Below are positions 17,756-60,138 of a DNA stretch of 64,000 bases, piece after piece; position 1 is the stretch's first letter, and the number at the start of each line of letters is the position of its first letter. Both the position numbers and the translations under genes were made by a program. This stretch comes from an uncultured Phycisphaerales bacterium (lineage in GTDB: Bacteria; Planctomycetota; Phycisphaerae; Tepidisphaerales; Tepidisphaeraceae), in contig CAVWVQ010000004.1 of NCBI GenBank assembly GCA_963758525.1, positions 32,001 to 96,000 of the forward strand, read 5' to 3'. Under the pieces are notes generated by a model. That model was not told the origin of the DNA. It saw nothing but the letters and a program-made list of their open reading frames with translations, and did no database searches.

Positions 17756-18846
17756 CTAATCCGGAAAATCCACATCCAGGCCCACGCCGGTTAATCCACC
17801 TCCAGAACTGGTTCCCCCAGTAATGGCGTTGCTGGAATAGGTGCTCCAGGGGGTTGCAACGGTGCCGCCCGAATAGCCACTGGGCCGCTCGGTGTTCGAA
17901 TTCTGGAAATACATTGAACCGGCAGTCGCGTCTACGAGCGGGTAGTTGGATGCACCGCTCGCAAGAATCTGCTCAGTATCAACGTGCCCGTCCACATACA
18001 GAATGTTCATTCGCCCCTTGTGACGTATGTCATCGAACACCTCTTGCTGGGCGGCGCCAAGGTTGAAGAAATCGGCGAGGCTCGCGGGCGCTTTCGATAC
18101 CGCAACGGCATACCCATTGGATTTGTGCAGAAATGCCTCGTAGCAGAAGCTGCCGTCACACATCAGCATCGTACTGCTCGGGTGGGGAACCGCCGAAAAG
18201 AGGCCGCGAAGCCGGGTATGCGGAGGCGATCCAATGTGATTTTGGAATCCAAGGACTTCTTCGTTGTAAACATAGCTTGAGTAACCGGTAAGCCAGTAGC
18301 TTGTCTCGGCAAACCACCGAGGCGCATTTCCAAGGTTGACATTATTTGTCGCGGCGTTGTCAGCCGCCGCTTGTGCGGTTGCAACGTCCGACGGGCACAG
18401 AAAGAGGTCTAGTATAGGGGGCACTGCCATCGCATTCTCGACGCCGGTGTAGGTAGTGTCCTGTAACGGCCGCACCCCCAAATACGGCGACAACGCATGA
18501 GGAAGCGCGGTTGTCTGCAGTCCGGCGCCGTTATTAATGTAATATGTGTAGCGCTGCCTGGTGGCATCTCCAACTGCGGACGGTGTTGTCGAGACCAGAT
18601 TACAGCCCTGCAGCTGACAATACCCACGGTGCTCATTGGCGAAAAGATACATCGCCTGTCCAAGCGAGCGCAACTGACTTGCGCATTTGAGCTGCTGCGC
18701 TGAACGCCGCGCGCCGCCAGCGCCGGCAGCAAGATCGCGATCAGAACGGCGATGATACCGATGACAACAAGGAGTTCGACAAGCGTAAACCCTCTGCGCC
18801 GGCCCTTACGGCATCGACTAGGCGTGGGGAAAGAACGATGTGACAT
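17756..18846 (-). CDS. prepilin-type N-terminal cleavage/methylation protein (DUF1559-like), frame break near 18710
   Basis: [28 protein letters not shown] in ORF 18409-18846 continues as ..CASQLRSLGQAMYLFANEH..FLCPSD..RHKGRMNILYVDGHV in ORF 17756-18673. Confidence 0.85.
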
Positions 18847-23381: not shown

Positions 23382-25588
23382 TCAATGCTCCAGCGCGAGC
23401 CCCTGTTCCGATGCGCCGATCGTCAATAGCCCGCCGTTAAAGCGAACGGCCGAGAGGGTGCCTTTGAACGGACGCGGCGTTTGGGGGTCGACGAGAATCG
23501 TCTTGCCATCGGGCGAAGGATCGAGGCCGAAGAATGGGTTGATCACCACGTCCGCAAACGCCGCGCCGCTGATGCACTCTTTCATATTGCTCCCCCGCAG
23601 TGCGATGCGCACGGGGGCATCGTTCGACGTCGGGTTGGGTCCAATGAACTCGTGGGCCTGGGCAAATGGGCCCTCTTTGGTGACCTCGGCGGTGCGACAG
23701 TAGAAAGCGTAGGCGTCCTGAGTGCCGCCAAGTCGCCACATGGCTGCAGCGGTCAGTGGAATCCAGCCATCATAAGAGCCGGTGTAGGCGTGATCGGGAC
23801 GGGTGGCCTTCGGATAATTGGGATCCTTCAGGCTCATCGCCCGCATCCAGTCTTTGGTAAACAATTCGCGCTTGGCGAAGTCGATCGTTTTGGTCCTCTG
23901 CTCCGGCGACAGATCGTTGTAAAGCGCATCATCGGCGTAAATAAAATCCACGCAATGCTGCACCGGTACTGTCGCCCCATCCACTCTTCGCAGGTTCCAC
24001 GCACCTGTCTCCTTGTTATAGAGCGACAGCACCGCAGGCAGGAACGCGTCTGCTTTCTTGCGGAGATCGGCGGCGGCGGCCTCATTGCCCTTGAGCGAGT
24101 CCCAGTCGGCCGCTCGACGCATCATCCAGACGTTTTGCGCGTTGAACGCAGCGACGCATTCAACGTAGAGCGGGCCGGTTTCGAGCAGTTTTCCATTGTT
24201 GCCATAGTTTACTAAACCGTCTGGTCCCTTCGGCAGTGTCTCCCAGTCGGTGGCCAGTGCATTCATACTTTCGAAAACTGTTTTTCCATTCTCGAGCTTC
24301 TCATCGAGGAACGCGCGATCGCCGGTTACGCGCAGGTAGGTGTCGACGGTGGCGAATGTCGTGCAGGCATTGGCGGCATAGCCGGTGATGGCATCGTAAT
24401 GTTTTGCATCAAATCCACTCGCGTCCCGCAAATTGATATGAACGCTGCCACGCGGATTCTGCGCCAACCAGCGGCGGAGAATTGCCTTCATGTCTTTCGG
24501 CTCTAGCAGCGCCAGGCGCTCGCCGCCATCGAAGCATCCCAGAAATACTGAATCCCTTCTGATCGTTCGCCGCTGGTGATGAAGGCGCGCTGGATGGGGA
24601 ACTGCGTGCGCTCCAGATCAAGCATCGTCAGCGCGCCCATGTAGTAATTTCGCCGCAGCGAAGCATCGTCCGAATTCAAAACCGGCAGGTTCCCGGAGAA
24701 ATGAGCGTTTCCCGGCGTAAACGCGTCGGCCCAGCGCTGCTTCCAGACGCCTTCGAAAGCGTCCATCTCCGCCGCGAAATTGCCCGCCCAGCCGGTGACG
24801 TTCTTTCGTGTGGCAGCGGTCTGGTCGTGACTTCCATCTCCGGCCACATAACCTAGCTCGATCGCTGCGCCCGCAGGCAATGTCAGTTTCCACTGCCATA
24901 CCACATCGTCACCTTCAACGCTCACCCGATCCGGTTTGCGCAAAGGCGCGACGGCGGAGGTGTTTCGCGGATTCTGCGTAGCGTTCAGGACGTTGACGCC
25001 GTCTGCATCCAGCTTGCCGGGAACACGGAGCACCAATTGGAATTCTTTGGTCCCCCTGGTGCTGTTGGTCACCGTGATTTGACAGAGCACGCCGCGTTGC
25101 TCGTTCACCATGCGCGTATCGGTCAGGACAGACAAGCCAGCGCAGTCCCGGTTGCGTCGCAGGGCTCGATATGCGTACCAGCGGAAATCCGTAGCCGGAT
25201 ATTCCACCCCATCGAGTGTCATTTTCACCAATGGGTATCCGATCTTCCATTGCGTGAGCGGATCCTTCGTGTGAGTAAAGAGCGCGCCAAAGTAGCAGTA
25301 GTAAGACGTGAGATCGCGTGCCACGATGACCATGTCGCGGAAATTGTTGACGTCGGGAAGGTTGGTCACGATCGAAGCCGGCATCCAGTCGCCGGACATC
25401 TCGTCCAGCGACGGGACGTGCTGCGGAGGCTGTACGAAATCCGCAGCGACACTGGGCTTCGAACTTGACGTGTTGGATGCGCTTCGTGCAGGCAATGCCA
25501 TGGCTGTAACGATAAGCAGCGAGGGGAGGCAGGAGATCGCCCGGACTTTAGAGTTGTGGGTCTCAAAACCGCCGGTCGTTGGTTTCAT
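23382..25588 (-). CDS. secreted putative glycoside hydrolase, (alpha/alpha)6 six-hairpin-like; frame break near 24510
   Basis: ORF 24503-25666 ends GIQYFWDASMAASAW; one added G gives ..SAWALLEPKDMKAILRRWL into ORF 23382-24491. YFWD motif and location between GH92 and GH130 suggest a glycosidase of unassigned family. Confidence 0.6.
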
Positions 25589-25667
25589 TGGGACGTATCC
25601 TTCCATTGCTGTTTCCGGGCCGACGTGGTGACAATTGCAGCGGACTTCAATGCATTCTGCTCGCATG

Positions 25668-28049
25668 CTATCGCACGCCCCACTGCTTGTTGGGTGTGGA
25701 TCCCAGCACTAGCTCCAATGTTCCGCCTGCCGTAATTTCCGCATAGCTGAGCCAGCACCGATTGAACGGTTTGCCATTCAGGCGGGCGGACTGGATGCAG
25801 ATGTTGTCCGGCGAATTGTTCTTCGCCGTGATGGTGAACGATCCGCCCTTGGCATATTTCGGATCGAATTTGTAGGTCACCTTGTCGAAGAGCGGCGTGA
25901 CGATTTCGAAGCGGGGATCGCCAGGACAACTTTGCACAAGGCCGCTGGCCGCCGTGACGTACCAGGCGGAGAGCTGGCCGACGTCGTCATCGCCCGGCAC
26001 GCCGTCGGGGCCGACTTTGTAGGCGTTCTCCTCGTTCAGCAGCCATTTCTCGGTCAACCACGGAGCGCCGGCCCGGTTGAACAGGAAGACAATGAGCTCG
26101 GTCGGTTCGTTACCGGGGTTGTTGAAGGTACCCGCCCAGTACTTGGGAGCATTGGGATTCGGTGTCCGCTGGTCGGGGTTGTAAGTCGTGAAATCAGGCG
26201 ACCGTTTGTAGAAGTCGTCGAGCTTGGCGATGAAGAGATCCTTGCCCCCGTGCAGTTGGACCAGGTCGGGTACATCGTAGTACACACCGAACTCGGCCTG
26301 TTCGACCGTCGATTCGCGCGCACCCTTGGGCGAGGTCAGGCCCTCCCAGGGCACGAAGTTCCCGTTGCCGTCCTTCACGCGAAACGAGCCCTTCCACTCC
26401 GGGTTGGCATCGGTGCCGGCAGCGTCGTAGGTCCATGCCTGATTGGGATCGAAAATGTGTTTGTAAGACTGGGAGAGGGCCAGGTATTTCGCGGCGTCGT
26501 CCTTCTTGCCCAGCGCGGCGGCGAACTGGCTGACGTTCCATTCGTCGAGGCCGTACTCCGTCGTGTCGGAAATGGATCCACGGCAAAAGCCAAGCTTGGA
26601 GTTGCCGCTCTTGAGCGTGGTGTTGACCGCGTATTGGTAGGCCTTCTCGCTGTCGAAGCCTCGAATGCCTTTCTGCCAGGCGTCGTTGATGATGACGACT
26701 TCCGGATTGCCAGTCATGCAGCCGGTATAACAGCCCATGATTTCCCAGCGATCGTAGTAATGGGTGCCATTGAAGTCGGCCAGGTTGACCATGCTGTTGA
26801 TCTGATCATTGACCACCGACGGGTCCACCAGGCTCAGCAAGGGATAGACGCTCCGGAAGTTGTCCCAGCCGCTGAAGAGCGTGCGGTTGACGAACGTGCT
26901 TGAGTGATGAACTTTGTGATCACCGCCGGGATAGTTTCCGTTCACGTCGGCGAAGGTCATTGGAAAGAGCATGGCGCGATACAGCGCGCTGTAGAAGATG
27001 GTCTTGTGGTCCTCGGTGCCGCCTTCGACTGACAGATGATCCAGCGCACTGCTCCAGGCCTTGCGCGCCTCCTGATGAACGCGATCAAAATCCCAATCGG
27101 CAATCTCAGCCTTGAGATTCGCCCGCGCGCCCTCGATGCTGGCAAAGGATATCCCCGCCTTGACCTGCACCACTTCGCCTTCCTTCGTTGCAAACTCGCT
27201 GTAGAAGCCCAGATGCTGGCCCTCTTTCTCCCTGCAGCCCGGCAGGACCGCGGCCTTGCGGCACGCTTCAATGAAGGCGGGATCGCTGATCGTTTTAGTC
27301 TTGGCGTGGTAGTGCACGGAAGAATCGCTCCACACCGGCGGGAGCGCCGCGTCCCAGACGCCGACTTTTGCAAAAGGCTTGCTGAACTCGAGATGGTAGT
27401 AGAGCGTGTAGCTGGTCGCGCCAAACCGCCAGCCGCCCCCCTCGGCCGGGCAATTGATCTGGCCTTCAATGCTGTGATCATCCGTCACCTTCACGGTTTG
27501 ATGAAGGGAGGTGCCATCGTTGCGGTGAGACAGATCGATCTGGATGCGCGATTGGCTGTTTTCGGGAAACGTGAAGCGCAGCATTCCGCTGTGAGCGGCG
27601 GCCGTGCACTCGACGTGAATATGATAATCGTCGAGCGTCACCGCGTAGTACCCCGCGGAGGCTGTTTCCGACTTCTTTGAGAATGAGGATAGGTAGCCGG
27701 TTCCCGACTTGCCTTTCTGCCCCCAGTAGGTGTGGAGCGGGCCGATCGTGGCCATCGTCAACAGGTTGGCCAATTCGCCCCCATCCGCGCCGCCGATGTG
27801 CGTGAAGCTGAAGCCGCTGACGGTTTTGTCTGAGTAGTAATAGCTGACGACTCCAGCGGTGACCGTGTCCGGGCTGACCTTGGCCATGCCGAAAGGAGTC
27901 GATGCGCCGGGGAAATCCTTTCCCTGACTCCCGGTGCCGATGAAAGGATCGATGTAATCCACCGCGTCCTTCGCGCGAAGCGTGCCGGACAGGAGGGCCA
28001 GCATCGCCATCAACACGAGTAGGAAAAAAGTGGTGTTGCTACCGCGCAT
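25668..28049 (-). CDS. GH92 alpha-mannosidase
   Basis: YIDPFIGT, FPGASTPFGMAKVSPDT, GFSFTH, ETASAGYY, FSGWDNFRS, NPGNEP, GVPGDDDVGQLSAWYV. Confidence 0.92.
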   Translation of the reverse strand: MRGSNTTFFLLVLMAMLALLSGTLRAKDAVDYIDPFIGTGSQGKDFPGASTPFGMAKVSPDTVTAGVVSYYYSDKTVSGFSFTHIGGADGGELANLLTMATIGPLHTYWGQKGKSGTGYLSSFSKKSETASAGYYAVTLDDYHIHVECTAAAHSGMLRFTFPENSQSRIQIDLSHRNDGTSLHQTVKVTDDHSIEGQINCPAEGGGWRFGATSYTLYYHLEFSKPFAKVGVWDAALPPVWSDSSVHYHAKTKTISDPAFIEACRKAAVLPGCREKEGQHLGFYSEFATKEGEVVQVKAGISFASIEGARANLKAEIADWDFDRVHQEARKAWSSALDHLSVEGGTEDHKTIFYSALYRAMLFPMTFADVNGNYPGGDHKVHHSSTFVNRTLFSGWDNFRSVYPLLSLVDPSVVNDQINSMVNLADFNGTHYYDRWEIMGCYTGCMTGNPEVVIINDAWQKGIRGFDSEKAYQYAVNTTLKSGNSKLGFCRGSISDTTEYGLDEWNVSQFAAALGKKDDAAKYLALSQSYKHIFDPNQAWTYDAAGTDANPEWKGSFRVKDGNGNFVPWEGLTSPKGARESTVEQAEFGVYYDVPDLVQLHGGKDLFIAKLDDFYKRSPDFTTYNPDQRTPNPNAPKYWAGTFNNPGNEPTELIVFLFNRAGAPWLTEKWLLNEENAYKVGPDGVPGDDDVGQLSAWYVTAASGLVQSCPGDPRFEIVTPLFDKVTYKFDPKYAKGGSFTITAKNNSPDNICIQSARLNGKPFNRCWLSYAEITAGGTLELVLGSTPNKQWGVR

Positions 28050-28102
28050 CGGAGTCCGAGGGCCGAACGATGGCGGGAGTTGCGCCACCGTCAGAACAGA
28101 CG

Positions 28103-28135
28103 AATGTGGTATAGGCTGCACCGTTTGTCAAACGG
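28103..28135 (-). promoter_or_regulatory. GH92-operon promoter with perfect palindrome over the -35
   Basis: CCGTTTG-T-CAAACGG (28121-28135); minus strand reads TTGACA-N17-CACATT. Confidence 0.5.
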
Positions 28136-28198: not shown

Positions 28199-28262
28199 GT
28201 GACAAAAATGCATAAGTGAGTGACAAATACGCTCTTGCCAATGATCGCGAATGTGAGAAGAT
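28199..28262 (+). promoter_or_regulatory. tandem-box promoter (copy 1 of a duplicated promoter)
   Basis: GTGACAAAA (28199)-N12-GTGACAAAT (28220)-N6-TTGCCA (28235)-N16-GAAGAT (28257), TG before the -10. Confidence 0.7.
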
Positions 28263-28272
28263 CGCACATTGC

Positions 28273-29292
28273 ATGATCCATAAACGCGCAGCGCTTACGA
28301 TGATCGAATTGCTGGTTGTGATCGGGATCATTGCAATAATGGTCGCGGTTCTGTTGCCAGCGCTCGGCGCCGCGCGGGCACGCGCCCGAGTCGTCAATTG
28401 CGCTTCGAACATCCGGCAGATTTTGATGGGGACGTTAGCATATGCCAATGAGAACCATGGCTATCTGCCGCCGAGGGCGGGCGCGGGCAGTGCGGCTATC
28501 AGCGGGGCAGGCTACGAATTCGCAGAGGTGGTTTATACGGTCAGCGGCAAAACGTATCCTTCGAATGTCGGATCGCTGATCGCCGGAGGGTATCTCGGCC
28601 CGTCTTATGATGCCGCCTTCCTGGGCGCAACCAATCCGGTGACTGGACTGCCCAATTACTGCGACACGGCCATCTGCCCCGTTCGATATGACCCGGCCAT
28701 AGACCCCTCCGTTCTTGCCATCACTATGGGCGGCGGCACTCACCCTGGAACCGCACTCGCCTTTTGCTACAGTTCTAGCTATCTCTACAATCCGCATTGG
28801 GCCATCACGAGCTCGTCTCTCTACCCGGGCGGCGGCGTGAGTTGGTATCGCCGCGTCTCTGATTTCAACCCCTACAAGGCCCTGGTGACCGATCTGAGCA
28901 TCGGCGCGCTTGGGGGTACCTCGGCAAACGCATGGCTCGGCGCGGTACCCCACCCCGGCCGCAGCACGTGGACGTATAACCTCGGGTTCATTGATGGCCA
29001 TGTGACATCCGTGGCGGACACCATTCTCTCGACCTGTTCTCCGACGACCGGAGATGGCGTGGCCCTTGGATATGCCGTGCGAATGCCGCTCCAACTGGAA
29101 ACCATCGATTCTGACTTGGACGTGTTGGAAACCGAAGCTGACGGTCGCAACCCGGTCTTGATCACCGCCGATCCCGGAAAGGTGCCGTTGGATCGGACGT
29201 TCGGATACAACTCTTCCTCCCCATTCGAGTACCGCATCCAGGGACCGTCCGCTGCCCCTGGCTTGTATCATCCGCAGGTGAACTGGCCTTGA
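28273..29292 (+). CDS. prepilin-type N-terminal cleavage/methylation protein (DUF1559-like)
   Basis: [51 protein letters not shown]-terminal PH..YNLGFIDGHV. Confidence 0.88.
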   Translation: MIHKRAALTMIELLVVIGIIAIMVAVLLPALGAARARARVVNCASNIRQILMGTLAYANENHGYLPPRAGAGSAAISGAGYEFAEVVYTVSGKTYPSNVGSLIAGGYLGPSYDAAFLGATNPVTGLPNYCDTAICPVRYDPAIDPSVLAITMGGGTHPGTALAFCYSSSYLYNPHWAITSSSLYPGGGVSWYRRVSDFNPYKALVTDLSIGALGGTSANAWLGAVPHPGRSTWTYNLGFIDGHVTSVADTILSTCSPTTGDGVALGYAVRMPLQLETIDSDLDVLETEADGRNPVLITADPGKVPLDRTFGYNSSSPFEYRIQGPSAAPGLYHPQVNWP

Positions 29293-29399
29293 CGTGATTC
29301 GCTCGCCCCTATCACCCGCCGCTCGGGGTGAAAGTCCGCCGTCGGGACAAACGATGATGGTGATCTTCGGGGGCGGCGGGGTTCTGTACGCCTACGAGC

Positions 29400-29462
29400 G
29401 CGACAGAATACATAACGGAATGACAAATACGCTCTTGCCAATGATCGCGAATGTGAGAATAT
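29400..29462 (+). promoter_or_regulatory. tandem-box promoter (copy 2 of a duplicated promoter)
   Basis: GCGACAGAA (29400)-N11-ATGACAAAT (29420)-N6-TTGCCA-N16-GAATAT; 29421-29459 is identical to 28221-28259. Confidence 0.7.
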
Positions 29463-29475
29463 ACCTAAGACTGAT

Positions 29476-31830
29476 ATGACATCCATCGGTCGATCCTCCT
29501 TTTGCTGCCTCTGCTTGATCCTTTGTGCCGGATCCGTCTCACGCGGGACGATCACTGACGGCGTGGACTACGGTCTGTTCATCTCATATCGCGTGGCCAT
29601 ACCAACGTCCAAGTCCACGACCGCCAAGCCGGTGGAATCCGCTCCCGGCGGGAAGAAGAAGAAGAGTAAGAAGGAGAAAGAGCCCAGGTCCGTTGTCTAC
29701 AAGGGCATCACGGTTTCGCTGGATCAAAACACATCCGTTTGTTTCGACGCGGATCTCATGCGCTATGCGGCGGGTTGGACTGGCGGCTTCCTCGACATGG
29801 TCGACACCAACGCCGGCTCCAAGGCGGGCCATGATGATGCCGAGCCGGTAGGGGAAATCCGCTGGACGACCGATGTGGCGCCCGGCGCCATCGTCGGCTC
29901 GGGAGGTTTTATCGATCCCCGGCCCGATAAGCAGGGGCCGTTGCCACGCGCCACGGCCCACTATCGGGGGCTGTATAAAAACGGAAAGCACGTCGTCTTC
30001 TCCTACACCGTCGGCGATGTGGGCGTTTACGATCTGCCCGGCGTGATCGCTTCCGGCTCCGATGTTCTGTTCACACGCACCGTTCAGATAGATAAGTCAA
30101 CCGAGCCGGTGAGCTTCCTGTTGGCGGACCTCGCAGGCGCAACGCCCAAATCGATGCCCTCCGGCGCCGCCCGCATCACCGCGATTTCCGCTGGGCAAAA
30201 CGCGGTGGCGGCCGTCCTGCTCGATGGCGCGGCCACGGGAGCCAAGCTTGCCGCGACGGGCGGAGAACTCGTCCTCTCCGTTCCCGCCCACACTTCCGCG
30301 ACGACCGTTCGAGTGGGCATCTGGAGCGGCGCGGCTTCCAAGCTTGGCGAGATTCCTGCACTGGTCTCAAACCCCCCGGCGGCGGACAATATCGCGTCGC
30401 TGATTGCCGGTGGACCGCCGCAGTGGGGCGCTCCCATCGCAACTTCCGGCACGCTCGGCGCAGACAAGGCCGCGTACGTCGTTGACACCATCGGACTTCC
30501 CGAATCCAACCCATGGGGGTGCCGAATCAAGACTGGCGGCTTGGATTTCTTCAAGGATGGACGGGTGGCGGTGTGCACCTACAGCGGCGACGTCTGGATC
30601 GTCTCGGGGATGAATGACACGCTGGGCCGCGTGACATGGAAGCGCTTCGCCGCGGGTTTGTATGAAACGCTGGGCCTCAAAGTCGTCGATGACCAGATTT
30701 ATGTGCTGGGCCGCGATCAGATCACGCTGCTGCACGATCAAAAAGGGAGCGGCGAGGCTGACTTCTATGAGAACTTCAATAACGACCAGATCGCCGCGGA
30801 ATCGTATCACGCTTTTGCTTTCGATCTACAGACAGACAGCCACGGCGACTTCTTTTATTCCATTGACGGGAACCTGGTCGAGCCCTCGGTCAGACTGCAT
30901 GGCATCATCATGAAAGTCTCGAAAAGCGGCGACAAGAGCGAAGTCTACGCCCGCGGATTGCGAGCCCCCAACGGGACGGGAATGGGACCCAACGACGAAT
31001 TGGTTTGCAGTGACAATCAGGGACACTGGACGCCAGTAGACCGCATCAATTTCGTCCGCAAAGGAGGCTTTGAGGGGTATCGTGGCGATCCGCGCCTCTC
31101 CAAGGCCGGCGACGCCGAGCGGCTGGGGTTGCCCAGCCAATATGATCCGCCAATTTGCTGGATTCCCTACAGCCTGGACAACTCCGCCGGCGGCGAAGTG
31201 TGGGCAACCAGCACCAGGTGGGGTCCGCTCGATGGAAAGTTGCTCCAGACATCGTATGGGAAGAGCATTCTCATGGAGGTCCTGTGGGAGATGACCGATG
31301 GCGTGCCGCAGGGTGGCGTGGTTCGCCTGCCCCTGAAATTCGAGTCAGGCATCATGCGCGCCCGATTCAACCCCACCGACGGGCAACTCTACGTGTGCGG
31401 CCTCAAGGGATGGCAGACCAATGCCCGCCATGAAGGTTGCCTCCAGCGCGTCCGGTACACTGGCAAACCGGTCAATCTGCCGATTGCCCTGCACATCAAG
31501 CATGACGGAATCGAGCTGACTTTCTCCGAGAAGCTCGATCCGACCACCGCCAACGACGGCGACTCGTACAACATCGAGCAGTGGAACTATCGCTACTCAG
31601 CCACCTACGGGTCGCCGGAGCTCAAAGTCTCCAATCCATCCGCCCAGGGGCACGATGTCGTTCCAATCAAGTCCGCCATGCTGCAGCCTGACGGCAAGAC
31701 CGTATTCCTGCGCGTCGACAATCTGCAACCGGTGATGCAGATGGCGATCCAGTGCAAACTCGACTCCGCCGACGGCTCGCCTGTGGAGTGCGAGATCGAC
31801 AACACGATCAATAAGGTGCCTGCCAAATGA
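29476..31830 (+). CDS. DUF6797-like secreted beta-propeller protein (copy 2)
   Basis: Collinear with 7100-9586: DYGLFIS, YKGI, HYRGLY, VFSYTVGD, CTYSGDVW, FYENFNND, LRAPNG, DNQGHW, MRARFNPTDGQLYVCGLKGWQT, LQPVMQM. Confidence 0.7.
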   Translation: MTSIGRSSFCCLCLILCAGSVSRGTITDGVDYGLFISYRVAIPTSKSTTAKPVESAPGGKKKKSKKEKEPRSVVYKGITVSLDQNTSVCFDADLMRYAAGWTGGFLDMVDTNAGSKAGHDDAEPVGEIRWTTDVAPGAIVGSGGFIDPRPDKQGPLPRATAHYRGLYKNGKHVVFSYTVGDVGVYDLPGVIASGSDVLFTRTVQIDKSTEPVSFLLADLAGATPKSMPSGAARITAISAGQNAVAAVLLDGAATGAKLAATGGELVLSVPAHTSATTVRVGIWSGAASKLGEIPALVSNPPAADNIASLIAGGPPQWGAPIATSGTLGADKAAYVVDTIGLPESNPWGCRIKTGGLDFFKDGRVAVCTYSGDVWIVSGMNDTLGRVTWKRFAAGLYETLGLKVVDDQIYVLGRDQITLLHDQKGSGEADFYENFNNDQIAAESYHAFAFDLQTDSHGDFFYSIDGNLVEPSVRLHGIIMKVSKSGDKSEVYARGLRAPNGTGMGPNDELVCSDNQGHWTPVDRINFVRKGGFEGYRGDPRLSKAGDAERLGLPSQYDPPICWIPYSLDNSAGGEVWATSTRWGPLDGKLLQTSYGKSILMEVLWEMTDGVPQGGVVRLPLKFESGIMRARFNPTDGQLYVCGLKGWQTNARHEGCLQRVRYTGKPVNLPIALHIKHDGIELTFSEKLDPTTANDGDSYNIEQWNYRYSATYGSPELKVSNPSAQGHDVVPIKSAMLQPDGKTVFLRVDNLQPVMQMAIQCKLDSADGSPVECEIDNTINKVPAK

Positions 31831-31998
31831 TACGCCGCACATGCCGGCGCCCGTCGCTGGTCTTGATGCTGACTGCGGCACTGGCCTCAGACGTATGCGA
31901 TTTTTTCCCGGCTGCTCGCTCCGCAGATGCTGAAAAGCTCCTGAACGCAGCATAAAATCTTCTCAAGCTGAGAAGAAACGAATGGGTTGCGGCGCAGA

Positions 31999-32123
31999 TT
32001 GAATGAAATCACTGGGAAGACCATCGCATCGACTATCTCAAGGCGACCGGCCTTCACATTTGCCTCTTGATCAACTTCGGGAAACCGCAAGTGGACGTTA
32101 AACGCATCGTACGAAGTCTCTGA
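31999..32123 (+). pseudogene. internally deleted GxxExxY protein remnant
   Basis: LNEITGKTI (31999-32025) abuts, in another frame, IDYLKATGLHICLLINFGKPQVDVKRIVRSL* (32028-32123); these resemble the N- and C-termini of GxxExxY proteins. Confidence 0.65.
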
Positions 32124-32217
32124 TCAATCTGCGTTCATCGGCGTTTATCAGCGGTTCAATCTCTTTCCCTGCGTTCATCCACGGCCAGAGCGGACCGGTC
32201 GCGCGAGATGTTTGCGT

Positions 32218-33228
32218 TTAATTCAAATCCACGGGTGTCGCCAGCGGCACAGGCTGATTCCATGGCGTCTTGCCGTCAAACACGGCGTTGAAGAGGTAGG
32301 TGATCTTCCCGTTCTCGATCAAAAGCCACGGCCGTTCGCGGCGCACAGGGTTGAACTCGGTGCCGTCGGTCCAGTGAATGGTGTCGTCGTAGGCAATCGG
32401 TTGCGGAGCCGCCCGCCAATGGCTGATGCCGTCGTCGGAGATCAGATGCCCGCCCCACCGCTTGTCGTGGCCGGTCAGCTTGCCGCCGTTATCTTCGCAA
32501 ATGAGATGATAGGTGCCCCCTTTTTTGAACATGAAGAAATCCTCCAGCTTTCCCGATGGCCAGAGATTTTTATTCGCGACCGTGTAAGGCCCGTCGAACG
32601 ATTTCGCGACGGATTCACAGACGCGCAGTCTGTCGGTACGCCAGACCAGCTTCACGCTGCCGTCCGGCTCGAACCACGCCGCAGGATTGTTCGCATCGCC
32701 GGCGACGCCAAGGTCCAGCGGCTTGTCCCGCCGCGTCCACGGACCGGCGACGGAAGAGGCAGTGGCGATCCCAATCTGCCGGAGGCTGGAGCCAACATCA
32801 CTTCCGATGTAGTACAAGACGAACGTGTCGCCGACCTTATAGATGGCAGGATTGTGCGCCATGGCGCTGTCCCATTTGCCGGCGGCGCGTTTCCCGATGA
32901 CGACTTCCTTAAACTCGTAGGGGCCTTGCGGCTTGGACGCTTCGGCGCGGACGATCTCGGAGTGTTGCCGATAGCCTTCGGGGAATTTCGTGCTGGCCGG
33001 CCAGCGCGAGGCGAACATCTCGTAAGCGTCGCCAACCTTGATGACCGAGCCGCACCAGACTTTGAAACCGTCCATCGCAAAGCCAGTCCCTTTTGCGACG
33101 GGTGCAAACGCACTTGGCTCAATGCCCACCGACGCCGTAGCCGGCGGCTCACTGCCGAACGCCGGACAATGGGCCAGCGACAGAAATGCGACCGCGCCGA
33201 TCATCAACAGATTATTGAGCTTGGCCAT
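32218..33228 (-). CDS. glycoside hydrolase, five-bladed beta-propeller (GH43-like)
   Basis: Signal peptide MAKLNNLLMIGAVAFLSLA; VWCGSVIK, FASRWP, SEIVRA..GPY, AHNPAI, NNPAAW, LEDFFMF, RRERPWL. Confidence 0.8.
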   Translation of the reverse strand: MAKLNNLLMIGAVAFLSLAHCPAFGSEPPATASVGIEPSAFAPVAKGTGFAMDGFKVWCGSVIKVGDAYEMFASRWPASTKFPEGYRQHSEIVRAEASKPQGPYEFKEVVIGKRAAGKWDSAMAHNPAIYKVGDTFVLYYIGSDVGSSLRQIGIATASSVAGPWTRRDKPLDLGVAGDANNPAAWFEPDGSVKLVWRTDRLRVCESVAKSFDGPYTVANKNLWPSGKLEDFFMFKKGGTYHLICEDNGGKLTGHDKRWGGHLISDDGISHWRAAPQPIAYDDTIHWTDGTEFNPVRRERPWLLIENGKITYLFNAVFDGKTPWNQPVPLATPVDLN

Positions 33229-33276
33229 GATGCACCGACACCTGTAATTGAACCTGACGAACAACGATCTAAAACA

Positions 33277-33678
33277 ACCACAGAGGGGGAAGAGCCCACA
33301 GAGATCACAGAGCGAATTTAAGTGCAGGCAGCCGTGATCGGCCGCAATTCTGCAACTGAGTTTCGGGACCACGCTCTGTCTCTGTGCCACAACCCATTGA
33401 GATCTTCGCGCGCTGCGCAAATTTTCCCGGGCAGGCGATCAGCCAAAAGATCAAGAGCCGCGAAGACGCGAAGCCGCGAAGACAAACGCGAAGGAAGACA
33501 ATTCAATTGCACCTGAAACCCGAGGGCACAATTCCTTGGGCTTCGATCCCGCATTTTTGATTTTCTTACCTTCGCGTCTCTCTTCGCGTCTTCGCGTCTT
33601 CGCGGCTCTTCGTTTTGGTTGCGGCCGAGCGAAGCGAGGCAGCGCCGGGATCTCTGTGAGCTCGGTGTCCTCTGTGGT
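33277..33678. repeat. nested inverted short-repeat arrays
   Basis: Outer pair ACCACAGAGG..CACAGAGATC (from 33277) versus ..CTCTGTG..CCTCTGTGGT (to 33678). Inner pair AAGAGCCGCGAAGACGCGAAG.. (from 33453) versus ..CTTCGCGTCTTCGCGGCTCTT (to 33610). Confidence 0.75.
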
Positions 33679-33728
33679 CGACTTTTGATCCGCGAGAACC
33701 ACGAGGTGTCCGTCCTCGTTCAACACGG

Positions 33729-33990
33729 TCATCGCTGCCCCGATGATGCTCGCCGGCGACCGCACAGCAATGGTCCCGCTCCGGCAAAAATCAGCAGTGC
33801 CGTGCTGGGTTCAGGAGCAGCGCTGTAATCAAGGTACAGCGCCTCGTTGCCCGCGCTCAGTTCCACCGCCGGTAATCGTGCCGCCTGCGGCGGCAGTTGG
33901 GGTAACCACAATGCCCCCAACTGACCGTCAGCGTATCGGCAGCGGTCATGGTCAAACGGGCCGTTGCACCACTCATCTCATCCATATGCG
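33729..33990 (-). pseudogene. PEP-CTERM protein remnant
   Basis: Intact tail NEALYLDYSAAPEPSTALLIFAGAGPLLCGRRR* preceded, in other frames, by only short passenger-like pieces (LTMTAADTLTV; GIVVTPTAAAGGTITGG). Confidence 0.7.
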
Positions 33991-34269
33991 CGGAAGCACG
34001 CTCAAACTGCCCCACTGCAGAGCTGAGGAGCAGACGGTCGCAGAGCCTGGTGAGTTTCATCATTTCGGCACTTCGGGTCTCAGAAAATTGTCCCTCAAAT
34101 TGCTCGCCGCGATCTGCGTCAATTCGCGAACGTGAGGCGCTCGCCCCTGTCATCCCCGCTCCGGGTGAAAGTTCGCCGTCAACTTCAAGCTGGGACGACT
34201 TCGCCGCCGGTGAAGCCTCGCCAATCAGTAGGCCAATCGCATTCGGGGAAAGGGTGGGAGGGAAAGTTA

Positions 34270-34390
34270 AAAGGTTGAAGAGTGAAAGGGGGAACGCGCC
34301 CGGCAACTGGCATTTTACTTCACCCTTTTCACTTCACTCTTCACCCTTCGGATTTACTTCACCCTTCTCACTTCACCCTTCACTCTTTCC
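34270..34390. repeat. CTTCAC(C/T)-type heptamer repeat cluster
   Basis: Repeated CTTCACC/CTTCACT units at about 34315-34390 with complementary GTTGAAG/AGTGAAAG units near 34272-34290. Confidence 0.6.
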
Positions 34391-34417
34391 CTCACGGAAG
34401 CCCCCGGCTGCCGGCAA

Positions 34418-37400
34418 TTACCCGTTGGCGCCGGCTGTGCGTGCACGCCGGCGACGCCGGCTTGTCAGCATAGGCAATGCGCCGGCCAGCAGCAGCATCG
34501 CAGTGCCGGGCTCGGGGGTGGCGTTGTAAACGACATCCAAGCTGTAGGAAGAGGTGCCCAGGTACTCCAGTTCCAACACGGGAGCACCGAATGCGTACCC
34601 GCTTGAAAATTCGCCCGGGGGCATGGCCAAGACAAAGGGACTGCTCCCGGCGGAGGCGCCGGCTGTCGCCAAGACCGTCACAGGACTTCCCGAGGTCGGC
34701 GCTGGGTAACTTGCGAGATTGCCTGTTCCCAACCCGCTCAGCTGGCTGATCCCTCCGGCGATCACCCAGTCCTCCGATGTCGCCGTGGGAAGCGCAGCGC
34801 CGTTGGCGGTGACCGTGAATGGTGTGGCCGAGGAGATGGTCGAGTCAAACGTCAACGTGCCGCCGCCTGTGGCATTCAGAAACATCTCGTCATTGGATGG
34901 CGTCCCCGAGGTGTTGAACACCCGGGCGGTGTAGCCGCTGCTGCCTTTCCAGGTTTGACTGCCTGTTGTCAGTGTCTTAGCTGTGTTCGTGACGCCATCG
35001 TTCACGGCGATTGTGCCGCCAGTCAGCGTAACCAGCCCGCTTCCCAGCCCCGTATTGGTTGCCTGCACGATGCCGGCTGAGATCGTCGTCCCGCCCGTAT
35101 ACGTGCTTGCACCGGTTAGAGTCTGTTTTTCTGTCGGATTGTTGAGGTTGACGACCAAGGCGACCACCCCGGCAGTCCCGCCGGTTCCAGTGTTCTGTAT
35201 CGTGCCGCCAAAGCTCTGGCTGGACACGCCATTCAACGTCAGCGTCGAAGTGCTGCTGCCAACGCTGTTGGTGACAATCCCGTTCGTCCCGGCCCCGATG
35301 AACCCGGCGACCGTGGCGGCGCTCTTCCCGCCGAGGTCGAGGGTCGGGGTGTTTGCGTTATTGCCGAATGTCACGTAGCCGGTGCCGAAGGTGCCCGTGC
35401 CACTTGCGGCCGAATTCAGTACCGTGCCGTTGTTAATGATCAACCCGCCGCCGAACGCGTTGGCCGTCCCGCTGAGGGTCAGCGTGCCAGCGCCGATCTT
35501 GGTGAAGGCAAACGCACCAGTTGAGTTAAAGCCGCCGAGATTACCCGCGCCGCCAATCTGGCCACCGATGTTGGTAATGTTGCCCGAGAGCGCGACAGCA
35601 TTGCCGTTCGTATCGATGGTGCCGCCTGTCGCCCCGATGGTGACCGCCTTGGAGGAAGTAATCGCATTGGCCGCTTGCAGCGTGCCGCCGTTGAAGGCAA
35701 ACGATGCCGCCGATCCGATGCCGTTGGAGGTTGTATTAAGGGTGCCGCCGTTGAGGTAAATGCCGCCAGTAAAGGTATTGGCACCCGACGTTGGATTGAG
35801 AGTCAGCAGACCCGCGCCACTCTTCGTCAGCCCAGTCGCGGAGGTGTTGTTGGCGATGACTGATCCGATCGTCAAACCGCCGCCTGCCGTGGCATCATTT
35901 TGAATGACAATGAGATCACCGCCGCTAAAACCTTCGAGCGTGCCGCCGGTGATGCTTAAAGCGTTCGCACCGACATTCGACGTTACAAGGATACCGCCGG
36001 AGGTGACGATTCCAGTTCCCGTCTGCGTCACCACGTTCGCGGCCGCCGTGTTGAAGCGGATGCTGTTGGTCGAACCAGCGGGGAACGCATCGCTCGTAGT
36101 CACGTTCGTGTTCGTACCGGCGCTGAACGTGTCAGCCGTGTAGCCAGTATAAGCAATGATGTTACCGCCCGACGAATTCGTGGCATTGGTTGCCCAATCG
36201 GACCCCCCTACCGTGGCGTAGGCGCCGAGGATGCCGTTGGTGTTCGTGTTGACCGTCGTAAAGCCGTTGATCGTACTCTGCGGGCCGTTCGGCAACACGA
36301 AATTCACCGTGCCGCCCACCGCGCGAGAACCCGCCGCGGCAAAGCTCACCAGCGTGCCCATGCCGCTGTTATTTACCGCCGTCACCGTCGAAGACCCCGC
36401 GTTGACCACCAACCCGCTGTTGAACGGCTGGCTCGTCGTGCCCGCCAAGTTGCCGTATTCCACGAAGGTGCCCCCGCCCACGTTCAACGCTACGTTGTTA
36501 TTCCCGTTTGAGTAAGCGCCCACATACCCGTTGCCGACCTGAAAAGTTCCACCGTTGACCGTCAACCCGCTCGAGCCGATTTCGGTGTTGGCGATGATTT
36601 CCGTGCCACTGTCGAGGGTCAAGTTCACAACCCGCCCGGGGGAATAGTTGCCAATGATCCCCGCAAAGCTAGCCGTGCCCGAGCCAATGAGTATCCAATT
36701 ACCAGTGCCGCCACCGCTGGAGAAATCTCCATTGGAAGCATTAGTCCCTTGGGCATCCGCCAGCAGACCAGAGGTGATGGTGTTTGCGCCGACGTTGATG
36801 CCGCCGCCGCCCGCGCCAGTGTAGACTTGGTTGCCGAAGGTGACATTGCCCGTGCCGAATGGTGTGCCGCCGGAGTTAAAGGCCAGTCGCCCACCGTTGA
36901 AGTAGAGGCCCCCGCTGAACGAGTTGTTGATGTTGTAAAAGCCGATATATCCACCGCTGGAGAGCCCCGAGGCGGCCACCGACAATGGGGTGGCGCCGTT
37001 ATCGACAATCAGCGAACTCAGGTTTAATGTCGCCGAGCCGCTATTGTTAATGGCTGCCAACTGCCCGCCAGTGGTACCCGTGATCGTGCCGCCGGTGATC
37101 GTGCCCCCGCCGCTTGCCGCCGAGGTCTGCAGAATGCCCCCGGCTTGAATCGTGTTCACCCCGGTCAGGGTCAAAGTGTATCCCGTGGCGTTGTTGAAGC
37201 GGATGCTGTTAGGCGTGATTGCCGCCGTCGGTGTCGCCGAAGCGTTAAAATCAATATTCTGTGCCGTGTAGTTCGCGGGCACATTCAGTGCGGTTCCCGT
37301 CTCGGTATAGCTGCCGGTCGCCAAGCCCGTGATCGCTCCACCGGACGTCGCGGGGGCAACCGCCCATGTTGTTTTGCCGCCATAGGTCGCGAAGCCGCCG

Positions 37401-39629: not shown

Positions 39630-39693
39630 ACTCTACCGCAGGTCCAAGCCACTGCAAGGATGTTTTTGTCACAAGTTTATGTGCTTTTGTAAC
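39630..39693 (-). promoter_or_regulatory. tandem-box promoter
   Basis: Minus strand: GTTACAAAA (39693-39685)-N12-GTGACAAAA (39672-39664)-N6-TTGCAG-N16-TAGAGT (39635-39630). Confidence 0.75.
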
Positions 39694-39815: not shown

Positions 39816-40067
39816 AGAGCGACAGCGGGTGGTTTGGGCGCTTGGGATCGCGATTCGCTCCGGAGCGCAGCGTCTATAACCGGAGATCGCTGCCGATGAC
39901 AAAAGTGCAGCAATTGGCACCGCAAGTAATTTTTAGGGCAGAACGCACAGACGGGATGGACGGAGAAGGCGGAGAAGCGTTCCGAGGCAGAATATCTCTT
40001 CTGGCGGAATATGCCATTGTCGGACTTTCGCCGCCGCGGGACCGGGGCGGGCGATGACGAGGGATCG

Positions 40068-40590
40068 ATGACCCAATCGCAGACGCCCAAGGAGTTCGCA
40101 TATCAGTTGCTGCGCGCTCAGCCGCACATATACGGCTATGTGTATTCGTTACTTCCGAATACGGACGCGGCGATGGACGTGCTGCAGGAAACGAACCTGG
40201 TGCTCTGGCGAAAGTCCAACGAGTTTGTGGGGGGGAACTTTTTTGCGTGGGCCTGCAGCGTCGCGCGGTTCTGCGTGCTTTCTCACAGACGGGACCTGGC
40301 CCGCGAGAAGCGGGTGTTCAGCGACGAGTTGATCGAAGATCTCGCGGATCAGTTCGAGCAGCGGTTGCCCAGGGTGAATTTGATGGCGGAAGCTTTGGAA
40401 CGGTGCCTGGAGAAGCTCACTGCGGAGGACCGCGAGCTGCTCAACGCCCGCTACTCCCACGGGGGATCGGTGGCCCAGGTGGCGGCGCAGCGGGGAAGAA
40501 CTGTCAACGCGATCTCCCGTGCCTGCTACCGCCTGCGCGATACTGCTTGACTGCATCCACGGGTCACTGGCGAAGGAAACTGCCCTATGA
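40068..40590 (+). CDS. ECF sigma-70 factor (Rhodopirellula/Verrucomicrobium type), frame break near 40543
   Basis: IYGYVYSLLP..AMDVLQETNLVLWRK..NFFAWACSVARF..ALERCLEKL..RELLNARY. The shifted frame gives LLDCIHGSLAKETAL*, whose TGA overlaps the next ATG (ATGA). Confidence 0.88.
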
Positions 40591-45400: not shown

Positions 45401-46538
45401 CAATCAGACGATCGGGACGATCAACAACAACACGGCCACGATCCTCAACAACGGCAGCCAGGCGAGCACCCTGACGATCAACGGCGGCGGCACCACCGCG
45501 ACCGCCTTCAACAATGGAAGCAACACGCTGGGACTCACCGTCGGTGGTGCAAGCACGCTCACGCTGAGTGCGTCAAGCTCCTATTCGGGCGGAACAACGA
45601 TCAACGGAGGCACGCTCGCGCTGACCCCGGCTTCGCCTTCGGTCAATAACATCGCGTCTTCCAAGTTCATCAACGTTGGAAATGCTGCCGCCTTGAACGT
45701 GACCAACGTCGGCGGCGCGGCGCAAACGCGTTCGCGTTGAAAGGCACTGGTACCCAGTCGACCAGTCAGATTCTGGGCGGGACCGGTACCGTGACAGGGG
45801 CCGTCGCCACCGCTAATGGAGCGACTCTTTCCGCGGGAACCGACAGCGGCACGGGAAAAGTGAATGTCGTCGGCGCAAGCTCCACCCTGCTCCCCGCAAC
45901 CGGGACGACCAACACCATCGGGACGTTAACCACCGGCAATCTGGCCCTCGGAGCCTCCACGGGCACCAGCGGCAACCTGGCGATCAAAGTGTCTGATGCG
46001 GCCAGCTCGGGAAACCCCGGGACGGCTGGAACCAATTACGATACGGTTGTCGCGCAAACCATTAGCGTGCCCTCCAATTCGCCCATGCTCCCGGCCAGTC
46101 CCTTCAACGTTCAGTTGCTCGGGTACGGAACCCTCAGCTCACCGGTGGCGAATTCCGCGTCGGTCAATTTCAATTCGAACGCCACATACGTCTGGCAAAT
46201 TGCCTCGTACACCTCCACGACTATCCCGGGCACCGGGGACGGCACGACGGAAGTCCTCACCAACGGCGGCGGTCTGACCGCGCCATCGGCCGTTTCCGGC
46301 CTGTTCAGTCTCGATACCAGCGGATTCGCCAGCGCCAACTCCATCCCCGGAGGCCAGCAGGGCATTCTATCTGGAAGACGTCGGAACCACCGGCGGCGCC
46401 GGAACGCTGGACGTGGTCTACAACGCCACCCCCGAACCCGGGACGGCGGTGCTGGTTCTCGCCGGCGTCGTTCCGATGCTCGGTCGCCGTCGGCGACGCC
46501 GCGGTCGGGATCGGAAGGAAGAAATGCTGGCCCAGTAG
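42465..46538 (+). CDS. large PEP-CTERM surface protein with autotransporter-associated beta-strand repeats (copy 2); frame breaks near 45720 and 46355
   Basis: ORF 42465-45740 (signal AAAALPLSGMLLSQSAWA, ALTKAGPGKLILSTNNSYTGGT) + ORF 45737.. + third frame AFYLEDVG..DVVYNATPEPGTAVLVLAGVVPMLGRRRRRR..EMLAQ* (TAG 46536-46538). Confidence 0.85.
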
Positions 46539-46745
46539 CCCGACGTTCGGGCAGGGACGGCGGGATTCGCAGTGGAGCATATAGTCATCGGCCATCTGGT
46601 GCCCTGCCGCATTCTTGAGGACGGGCACCACGCACCGTTGAAACACCAGCTGGGAGGCTGCCGAAACGCTACTATCGCTTAATTCGCCGTGTTCGGGCTT
46701 GCTAAAATGTGCGCGATGCATCCGGCCGCCCGTCTGGAGGGAACC

Positions 46746-55841: not shown

Positions 55842-55905
55842 AGAGTACCACTCTTTCGACCGCCGACAAGGCTGTTTTTGTCACCACGTTATGTGTTTCT
55901 GTCAC
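55842..55905 (-). promoter_or_regulatory. tandem-box promoter
   Basis: Minus strand: GTGACAGAA (55905-55897)-N12-GTGACAAAA (55884-55876)-N6-TTGTCG-N16-TACTCT (55847-55842), with an extended -10 TG. Confidence 0.75.
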
Positions 55906-59301: not shown

Positions 59302-60138
59302 ATGGCCGGCTCTTCGAGCATTCAAGAACCCGTCGCGCAGCGGATCGGCGGCATCGCAGTCGAGCGCCCGCGAGACGAGGTGCCGCGGGGGCTGCCGGTA
59401 GCGCTGCGCACCGTACAACATTCGATTATTTCCAAAGGACGCTTCGCTCAGACCTGGTCAAAGCGCATGGTTCTGGTGAAGTGGGTCATTTCTGGTGAAG
59501 CGGTGATGGGAGTCGCGGGGCGCAGGTTGACGTTTGGACCGGGCGAGGCAGCGGTCTACCTGCCGAGCATTCCCCACCGGTTCTGGGCGGTGGCCGATGA
59601 GAACGAGATGTGCTGGTTCTCGGTCGATGGACCGCTTGCCGAACAGTTCGCCATCGAGTTGGAATTCCGACCAGGGGTGTATCCACTGGGGCCGGCCCCC
59701 GTCGAGAAGATCCACGACTTGATGGAAAGCCTGAAGGACCACAGCATCCAGGGACGCAGGCAGGCGAGTCTGATGGTGATCGGGATGATGTACCAGGTCG
59801 CCAACGCGATCCGCGCACCGCAGGTTCCTCCCGTTGTCCTCAAAGCGCAGCACAAGATCCAGCAGGGCTTCGGCGATCCGGATCTCTCAACGGGATCGAT
59901 CGCAAGGGATCTGGGGTATCACCGCGGCTCGCTCAGCCGATTGTTTCACAAGCACACGGGGATCACGATCATTGACTTCCTTACCGACGCTCGGCTGCAG
60001 GAAGCCAAAGCATTGCTGGCCCACACGAACGACAAGATCTCGGACATCTCCAAAAAGTGCGGATTCCGGGAGCCGACGTATTTCCATCACTGGTTTCGGA
60101 AGCACACCGGCGTGACGCCCAACGATCTGCGTGAGTAA
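59302..60138 (+). CDS. AraC-family transcriptional regulator
   Basis: Cupin-like N-domain (PGEAAVYLPSIPHRF) plus double HTH: LSTGSIARDLGYHRGSLSRLFHKHTG..ARLQEAKALL..ISDISKKCGFREPTYF..FRKHTGVTP. Confidence 0.95.
   Translation: MAGSSSIQEPVAQRIGGIAVERPRDEVPRGLPVALRTVQHSIISKGRFAQTWSKRMVLVKWVISGEAVMGVAGRRLTFGPGEAAVYLPSIPHRFWAVADENEMCWFSVDGPLAEQFAIELEFRPGVYPLGPAPVEKIHDLMESLKDHSIQGRRQASLMVIGMMYQVANAIRAPQVPPVVLKAQHKIQQGFGDPDLSTGSIARDLGYHRGSLSRLFHKHTGITIIDFLTDARLQEAKALLAHTNDKISDISKKCGFREPTYFHHWFRKHTGVTPNDLRE

What the first reader, a model, noticed from the sequence alone, without database searches (positions are those of the whole stretch)
28199..29462. Pilin-like gene bracketed by a duplicated promoter exactly 1200 bp apart
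Seen: TGACAAATACGCTCTTGCCAATGATCGCGAATGTGAGAA (39 bp) is identical at 28221-28259 and 29421-29459, with partial similarity over about 60 bp. Each copy holds a regulator box, the -35 and most of the -10. The unit between them contains one pilin-like gene. Inference: the gene behaves as a cassette; recombination between the repeats would delete or amplify it and leave the DUF6797-like gene under an intact promoter. This could be a route for gain, loss or exchange of pilin heads.
Basis: partly seen in the sequence, partly recalled or inferred. Interest (0 to 1): 0.7.

Follow-up and report, generated by a model that had tools for sequence, protein, structure and literature searches.

The report
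Recently copied promoter core, not cassette
Two neighbouring genes in a sugar-breakdown gene cluster of an uncultured bacterium start with the same 39 bases, likely because the core of one regulated promoter was recently copied onto the other; this is probably ordinary promoter reuse, not a switchable pilin cassette.

Summary
The 39-bp exact repeat is real, 1200 bp apart, with only two copies in the genome. It has the layout of a promoter core (near half of a 21-bp direct-repeat box, -35, spacer, half of the -10) shared by at least three other promoters of this pectin-type polysaccharide locus; an AraC-family gene in the locus is the likely regulator. Only the core is young: the upstream half-boxes differ at 7 of 24 positions. 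A close relative keeps the pilin-like gene behind one homologous promoter (27/39) with no second copy, and has the DUF6797 gene elsewhere, so what differs is the DUF6797-GH43 block, which here lies between two 87%-identical copies of the pilin gene's tail. No empty site, silent pilin donors, further 39-mer copies or nearby recombinase were found; public reads do not cover the repeats. Best reading: one-off promoter reuse during local duplication and reshuffling (known kind).

The parts
28221..28259 (+). Repeat copy 1 (P1 core): near half-box, predicted -35 (28235-28240), 16-bp spacer, first half of predicted -10 (28257-28262)
28200..28220 (+). Far half-box of P1, canonical 21-bp period
28273..29292 (+). 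Prepilin-like (N-methyl / DUF1559-like) gene, 339 aa; short leader and a degenerate cleavage motif compared with relatives
29292..29343 (+). Tail sequence t1, starting at the last base of the pilin-like stop codon; homologous to the relative's post-stop sequence; not terminator-like
29401..29420 (+). Far half-box of P2, one base short (20-bp period), 17/24 like P1 and 17/24 like the site at 55904
29421..29459 (+). Repeat copy 2 (P2 core), identical to copy 1
29476..31830 (+). DUF6797 gene, 784 aa; start confirmed by two orthologues with the same N-terminus
32218..33228 (-). GH43-like glycoside hydrolase gene, second gene of the block between t1 and t2
34130..34180 (+). Tail copy t2, 45/52 identical to t1, next to the end of the PEP-CTERM-type gene
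25668..28121 (-). GH92 glycoside hydrolase gene, divergent from P1
18987..19012 (-). Same box upstream of a frameshifted prepilin-like gene
39667..39692 (-). Same box upstream of the PEP-CTERM-type gene
55879..55904 (-). Same box upstream of a sugar ABC-transporter-like operon
59302..60138 (+). AraC-family regulator (cupin + HTH_18), candidate binder of the box

Best explanation
The repeat is likely the core of one regulated promoter that was recently copied between two neighbouring transcription units of the same local regulon, so that the pilin-like gene and the DUF6797 gene are predicted to be switched on by the same AraC-type activator. Shown: two identical cores, dissimilar far half-boxes, the same box at other promoters of the locus, a second duplicated piece (the pilin gene's tail) bracketing the DUF6797-GH43 block, and a different gene order in a close relative. 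Inferred: local duplication and deletion brought the DUF6797-GH43 block behind the pilin gene, and a short-tract event (gene conversion, or a transient amplification that collapsed by a second crossover) then made the two cores identical; the donor was more likely the pilin promoter (about 60:40). It is a one-off product of host recombination, not a programmed switch; any deletion or amplification through 39 bp would be incidental and rare.
For: Core identical (0/39) while far half-boxes differ (7/24), Fisher p=6e-4 with the boundary chosen after the fact. Other promoters of the same class within one genome share 5-26 of 39 core bases (25 pairs besides this one), so selection on the motif does not give identity. 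The relative's pilin promoter is 27/39 (13/19 free positions) like the core, the best of 300 pairs apart from two identical pairs, matching the 62% fourfold-site identity of the gene. The relative has one promoter, no second box behind the pilin gene, and DUF6797 on the other side of the glycoside hydrolase gene. t1/t2 repeat 45/52. Tandem duplication of such units recurs: tandem pilin pairs in G057 and L056, the latter each with its own box; a 180-bp 85% relic in a pilin array on C1; a 161-bp ~97% upstream duplicate at two tandem PEP-CTERM-type genes on C3; 34 of 227 unique two-copy repeat segments 0.4-6 kb apart are non-coding. Box found in 7 of 17 loci of AraC orthologues against 2 of 29 DUF6797 loci, shuffles about 10%.
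Against: Only one close allele (L054 and L055 are identical over 498 bases), and it carries deletions that break DUF6797 and GH43, so its order may itself be derived. Its DUF6797 promoter is not held, so the direction of copying is untested. Both copies here sit only 10 and 13 bases (after the predicted -10) from their start codons, whereas the relative's pilin leader is about 150 bases; that fits copying from the DUF6797 promoter instead. No remnant of a second pilin ORF lies between P2 and t2, so a simple duplicate-and-replace history needs precise ends. The excess divergence of the pilin allele is not explained by this model. No expression or binding data.
Confidence: 0.63

Rival explanations
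1. One-off insertion of the pilin-like unit in front of DUF6797 with a long target duplication (or Campbell-type integration at the promoter): the core belonged to DUF6797 and the incoming pilin gene took the duplicate.
For: Repeat is unique, exact and over 30 bp, as in the cases of PMC2853133 (passages). Equal, very short leaders at both copies and a changed pilin N-terminus. Pilin allele older than its neighbours.
Against: No empty site seen in 40 relatives, 140 family genomes or 400 phylum genomes searched, which hold no close locus at all. The relative has the pilin gene at the equivalent place with a homologous promoter. GC content equals the neighbours' (0.597 vs 0.586-0.607). Does not account for t1/t2.
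Confidence: 0.22
2. Active cassette: the population keeps deleting, amplifying or swapping the pilin gene through the two promoter copies, and this is what keeps them identical.
For: Direct orientation, perfect 39 bp, one whole gene between; a transient amplification would give exactly a converted core (inference).
Against: No donors: two copies of the 39-mer only, nearest paralogue 42% identical, 1 of 45 prepilin-like ORFs so flanked; no tyrosine or serine recombinase on the contig; no internal mosaic; no such identical promoter pair in 19 other fetched stretches of the regulon, several of them short.
Confidence: 0.07
3. Old duplication of the whole unit (promoter to tail) with the core kept identical by selection and chance, no later copying.
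For: P1/P2 91% over 56 bp and t1/t2 87% are similar overall ages; tandem units exist in relatives.
Against: At 13.5% divergence, no change in 39 sites has p=0.003, or 0.03 if 15 sites are constrained, while 7 of 24 in the far half-box has p=0.035; the orthologous promoter has changed 12 of the same 39 bases.
Confidence: 0.06
4. Assembly artefact.
For: No public contig bridges either repeat; the genome's contamination figure is 6%.
Against: Flanks of the two copies are different and each carries its own half-box; short contigs identical to the window exist for GH92, the pilin-like gene and DUF6797; both genes have intact orthologues.
Confidence: 0.02

Closest known systems
Putative mobile promoters / promoter reuse (Nijveen, Matus-Garcia, van Passel 2012, PMC3575422; main text read)
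   Same: A pair of near-identical upstream sequences before unrelated genes in one genome, not part of a known mobile element; most published families are pairs averaging 92% identity.
   Different: Their screen used positions -150 to -50 from the start codon; this repeat lies at -52 to -14 and -55 to -17 and would have been missed. The copies are adjacent and belong to one regulon.
Promoter capture by duplication (citT case, as mentioned in PMC3575422; details recalled)
   Same: A gene comes under a neighbour's promoter through local duplication without a dedicated recombinase.
   Different: No tandem amplification persists here; the history is inferred from one relative.
Insertion with long target duplication (PMC2853133; passages)
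   Same: Unique direct repeats over 30 bp around a small insert with no mobility genes.
   Different: Described for restriction-modification genes and defined by an empty site, which was not found; insert GC is not atypical.
Pilin antigenic variation (Neisseria pilE/pilS) and shufflons (recalled)
   Same: A pilin-fold protein in a large paralogous family.
   Different: No silent near-identical donors, no recombinase on the contig, no mosaic in the gene.
AraC/XylS-family regulons (A-box/B-box half-sites: 10.64898/2026.09.23.753698, passages; 21-bp direct repeat abutting -35: recalled)
   Same: Two conserved patches about 10 bp apart, repeated at 21 bp, next to a -35; AraC-family gene in the locus.
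   Different: Binding untested; the motif was not found in print in the searches made.

Membership tests
Putative mobile promoter (PMP) | 80% or more identity over 50 nt or more upstream of genes | tested here: met
   51/56 ungapped
Putative mobile promoter (PMP) | Downstream coding sequences not paralogous | tested here: met
   No significant pilin match in 29293-34420, best E 0.012; different Pfam families
Putative mobile promoter (PMP) | Match lies within -150 to -50 of the start codon (the published screen's window) | tested here: not met
   Only 27 columns align in that window; it works like a PMP but falls outside the screen's operational definition
Putative mobile promoter (PMP) | Not a known RNA family | tested here: met
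   No Rfam match at 28-30 kb up to E 5
Insertion with long target duplication | Unique direct repeat longer than 30 bp around an insert under 20 kb | tested here: met
Insertion with long target duplication | Empty site with one copy in a related genome | tested here: inconclusive
   No close genome among those searched; the one close contig is rearranged, not empty
Insertion with long target duplication | Insert carries restriction-modification genes (criterion of PMC2853133) | tested here: not met
   Insert is one prepilin-like gene
Pilin antigenic-variation or shufflon system | Silent, closely related donor copies or repeated crossover sites | tested here: not met
   Two copies of the 39-mer; nearest paralogue 42%; 1 of 45 flanked
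Pilin antigenic-variation or shufflon system | Linked site-specific recombinase | tested here: not met
   14 PF00589 and 2 PF00239 matches, none on contig C4; other recombinase families not searched
Pilin antigenic-variation or shufflon system | Variant junctions in the population | tested here: inconclusive
   Contigs of depth about 2 cover neither repeat
Type IV pilin / prepilin-type N-terminal domain | Class III signal peptide (Pfam N_methyl, TIGR02532) at curated cut-off | tested here: inconclusive
   19.5 vs 21.2 bits and 14.0 vs 16.3: just under; the relative's orthologue passes (26.2); Glu5 present, Phe1 replaced by Leu
Type IV pilin / prepilin-type N-terminal domain | Long N-terminal helix plus globular head | tested here: inconclusive
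   Model pLDDT 75, helix 10-60; best match PilA4 6xxd_A Z 5.0, rmsd 3.2, 124 aligned, top 12 rows all pilins or pseudopilins, but Z under 8; Foldseek none at E 0.001
DUF1559 / H-X9-DG proteins | PF07596 or TIGR04294 at cut-off | tested here: not met
   PF07596 16.9 vs 23.3; TIGR04294 not matched at E 10; the H and DGH residues are invariant in 22 aligned sequences but spaced differently, so DUF1559-like only
AraC/XylS-regulated promoter | Direct-repeat box abutting -35, co-occurring with the regulator | tested here: met
AraC/XylS-regulated promoter | Binding and activation by the regulator | not testable with these tools
   needs EMSA/reporter

The most novel reading that the evidence does not exclude
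In these planctomycete polysaccharide loci the shared regulon promoter itself serves as the crossover site, so whole pilin-like transcription units are gained, amplified and swapped between lineages without any recombinase, tuning a repertoire of sugar-induced pilin-like proteins.
Probability: 0.12. Interest if true: 0.6.

Novelty: new member of a known kind. Interest (0 to 1): 0.22.

Why it matters
As promoter reuse it is one more example of a described process, though a clear one: a regulon growing by copying a promoter core onto a neighbour. The by-product is more useful: a conserved box that ties DUF1559-like pilin-fold proteins, PEP-CTERM-type proteins and pectin-degrading enzymes to one AraC-type regulator gives a concrete condition under which to test what these abundant, unexplained planctomycete proteins do.

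Tried and rejected
Reads: four runs of one study with small word shares, no RNA holder listed; laid twice, no contig covers either repeat and no joint falls in the unit: no verdict. A degenerate box pattern over 141 genomes hit 3 and found only one site in the own genome, so it was mis-specified and is not used. Homology upstream of the box between this strain and L054: not above shuffles (20.5 vs 24.7), dropped. Tail as terminator or structured RNA: z -0.3 to -1.0, no terminator, no Rfam family. Repeat as duplicated coding N-terminus: both copies read in frame into the downstream ORF, but copy 2 has no ATG/GTG/TTG start before 29476 and two orthologues start there; rejected. Mosaic (head swap) within the pilin gene: permutation p=0.14. 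DUF6797 as a habitual pilin neighbour: 4 of 109 loci with short flanks. Foldseek gave no match at E 0.001. The NAR paper behind the PMP screen is not held, so only its commentary was read. Literature searches for DUF1559 or H-X9-DG with pilins, planctomycetes or polysaccharide loci (listings only, plus passages of PMC2754498) showed no description of this regulon or arrangement; the library lacks most subscription journals and no supplements were opened.

Full report
Observation. The repeat is as described: 39 identical bases at 28221-28259 and 29421-29459, 1200 apart, not extendable, 51 of 56 over the wider tract, chance expectation 3e-14. In the 6.47-Mb genome the next best match has 13 mismatches. 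Between the copies is one ORF, 28273-29292; downstream is a DUF6797 gene, 29476-31830; a GH92 gene diverges to the left.

Setting. The window is a polysaccharide locus: rhamnogalacturonan lyases, a PcRGLX-like protein, GH38, GH43, GH92, GH130, a sugar transporter, two DUF6797 genes, long passenger-repeat (PEP-CTERM-type, label recalled) genes and five prepilin-like genes. The organism is probably a Tepidisphaerales-like planctomycete (inferred from gene content and from the label of the closest named DUF6797 relatives). An AraC-family gene lies at 59302-60138.

What the repeat is. A box with two conserved patches, repeated at 21 bp, precedes P1 and three other transcription units (19012, 39692, 55904, all minus strand), with weaker sites at 59070, 39897 and 3471. 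At those three the near TGACA is followed after 9 bases by TTG and, 16 bases after that hexamer, by TATAAT, TACTCT or TAGAGT; the repeat has the same spacing, with GAAGAT and GAATAT at the -10 place. A matrix from five sites scores only those five above 21 bits in the genome (the five are the training set). The generic sigma-70 scan does not flag either copy. The AraC gene has orthologues in 16 of 140 family genomes; the box scores 12 or more in 7 of 17 of their loci against 2 of 29 DUF6797 loci and about 10% of shuffles. So an AraC-activated promoter is the likely identity; binding is untested. Of 25 sites collected, 9 have a prepilin-like gene next, plus one frameshifted (several loci were fetched because of their pilin, so this is biased).

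Only the core is young. The far half-boxes differ at 7 of 24 columns, copy 2's being one base short and as like the 55904 site (17/24) as like P1 (17/24); against 0 of 39 in the core Fisher p is 6e-4, with the boundary chosen after the fact. The other 25 within-genome pairs share 5-26 of 39.

The close relative. L054 and L055 (one allele, identical over 498 bases) carry the orthologue at 82%. It has one promoter, 27/39 like the core and 13/19 at free positions, the best of 300 pairs apart from two identical pairs, a leader of about 150 bases, and no second box behind the gene. Its order is DUF6797 (truncated), GH43 fragments, glycoside hydrolase, promoter, pilin-like gene, a small gene pair and transposase-like ORF (labels recalled), PEP-CTERM-type gene. 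Here DUF6797-GH43 lies behind the pilin-like gene, between two copies of the gene's tail: 29292-29343 and 34130-34180, 45/52 identical; the first is homologous to the relative's post-stop sequence. So the arrangement is not fixed, but it is the DUF6797-GH43 block that differs, not the presence of the pilin gene. No remnant of a second pilin ORF lies in that block. The relative's contig has its own deletions, so its order may be derived, and its DUF6797 promoter is not held (the gene's start is known from P0028 and P0027).

At fourfold sites the pilin-like genes of the two strains are 98/159 identical, the neighbours 377/471 (p=7e-6), evenly along the gene (best split, permutation p=0.14). One lineage probably replaced the whole gene or kept a different paralogue. 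This does not need the 39-bp repeat. Also for the opposite direction of copying: both copies here sit within 10-13 bases of a start codon and the pilin N-terminus is changed.

Cassette tests. No third copy of the core in the genome, in 256 of 261 loci (the other five are this locus) or in viral contigs. Of 45 prepilin-like ORFs only this one has an exact flanking repeat of 20 bp or more; the next are 18 and 17 bp, and 400 control ORFs reach 15. The 18-bp case is part of a 180-bp 85% relic including a pilin start codon in a tandem array. None of 14 tyrosine and 2 serine recombinase matches is on this contig. No exact repeat of 25 bp or more at box sites was seen in 19 other stretches of the regulon; repeats in G057, G138 and G143 lie elsewhere. 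Reads could not test junctions. Local two-copy repeats are not rare in this genome: 34 of 227 segments are non-coding, including tRNA-end and interspersed-repeat cases, and two tandem PEP-CTERM-type genes on C3 share a 161-bp upstream duplicate. Tandem pairs of this pilin subfamily occur in G057 and L056, the latter with two old (14/39) promoters.

The protein. It falls just under the N_methyl and TIGR02532 cut-offs and well under DUF1559; the orthologue passes TIGR02532. The model has a 50-residue N-terminal helix and its best structural matches are pilins at modest scores (Z 5.0, rmsd 3.2, 124 aligned; Foldseek none). A prepilin peptidase family gene is in the genome. Pilin-like is fair; function is untested.

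Mechanism. Most likely (0.63): duplication and deletion placed DUF6797-GH43 behind the pilin unit, and a short-tract conversion, or an amplification that collapsed by a second crossover, made the two promoter cores identical, probably from P1 to P2. Both genes would then answer the same activator; no terminator was found between them, so P2 would be an internal booster. Rivals: one-off insertion with long target duplication (0.22), active cassette (0.07), old duplication kept by selection (0.06), artefact (0.02).

Known kinds. Promoter reuse as in PMC3575422 (main text read) fits by identity, length and unrelated downstream genes, though outside that screen's window. Insertion with long target duplication (PMC2853133, passages) fits the repeat but lacks the empty site. 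DUF1559 is described as an expanded planctomycete family of unknown function (PMC2754498, passages). AraC half-site anatomy: 10.64898/2026.09.23.753698 (passages); the 21-bp period rule, pilE/pilS and shufflon features are recalled. PMC13732712 gave only a reference line. Searches showed no account of this regulon; supplements were not opened. G004 is flagged unpublished and enters only the tallies of the family searches. Earlier scan notes on other genomes describe similar promoter-flanked units; none concerns this locus and none was checked.

Verdict. Real feature, ordinary kind: interest 0.22; new member of a known kind.

Noticed in passing
window 19012-, 28200+, 39692-, 55904-, 59070-, 39897+, 3471-; L046:640, L054:3740, L056:367 and 1682, L134:15618, L228:2558, L234:2597: Conserved 21-bp direct-repeat box abutting a -35, enriched near orthologues of the AraC gene 59302-60138 and often upstream of prepilin-like or PEP-CTERM-type genes; an apparently undescribed regulon of planctomycete polysaccharide loci.
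   Followed up: partly
window 28273-29292 vs L054:3947-4999: Pilin-like allele far more diverged at fourfold sites (62%) than neighbouring genes (79-81%), evenly along the gene: likely whole-gene replacement or differential paralogue retention.
   Followed up: partly
G000:C1:425529-425708 and 426928-427103: 180-bp 85% direct repeat, including a pilin start codon and leader up to the cleavage site, brackets another prepilin-like gene in a three-gene array (spacing 1399).
   Followed up: partly
G000:C3:661560-661718 and 667115-667274 (approximate): 161-bp ~97% duplicated upstream region at two tandem PEP-CTERM-type genes, the downstream one frameshifted.
   Followed up: partly
window 5598-9586: A second prepilin-like / DUF6797 pair, divergently arranged; the DUF6797 paralogue is 71-77% identical in DNA stretches to 29476-31830 and lacks the box.
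   Followed up: partly
window 17756-18846, 23382-25666, 42465-46618, 48429-48935, 52136-53115: Several genes appear split by a frameshift or stop (the 23382-25666 hydrolase is one ORF of 718 aa in L054); could be long-read assembly errors or decay.
   Followed up: no
L054:790-1270: In the relative, DUF6797 and GH43 are cut by two deletions (about 1.3 kb and 0.4 kb) and fused out of frame.
   Followed up: partly
window 33430-33630: Palindromic short-unit repeat present in about 90 places in the genome (REP-like).
   Followed up: no
window 33857-34306 (-): 149-aa ORF overlapping tail copy t2, with no Pfam match and no homologue in the genome; probably not a gene.
   Followed up: partly
window 40011-42395: ECF sigma factor and FecR-LamG anti-sigma pair, divergent from the PEP-CTERM-type gene, with a weak box at 39897.
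   Followed up: no
window 62123-63949: Prepilin 5' remnant near 62123-62186 beside a UPF0236 (transposase-like, label recalled) gene.
   Followed up: no
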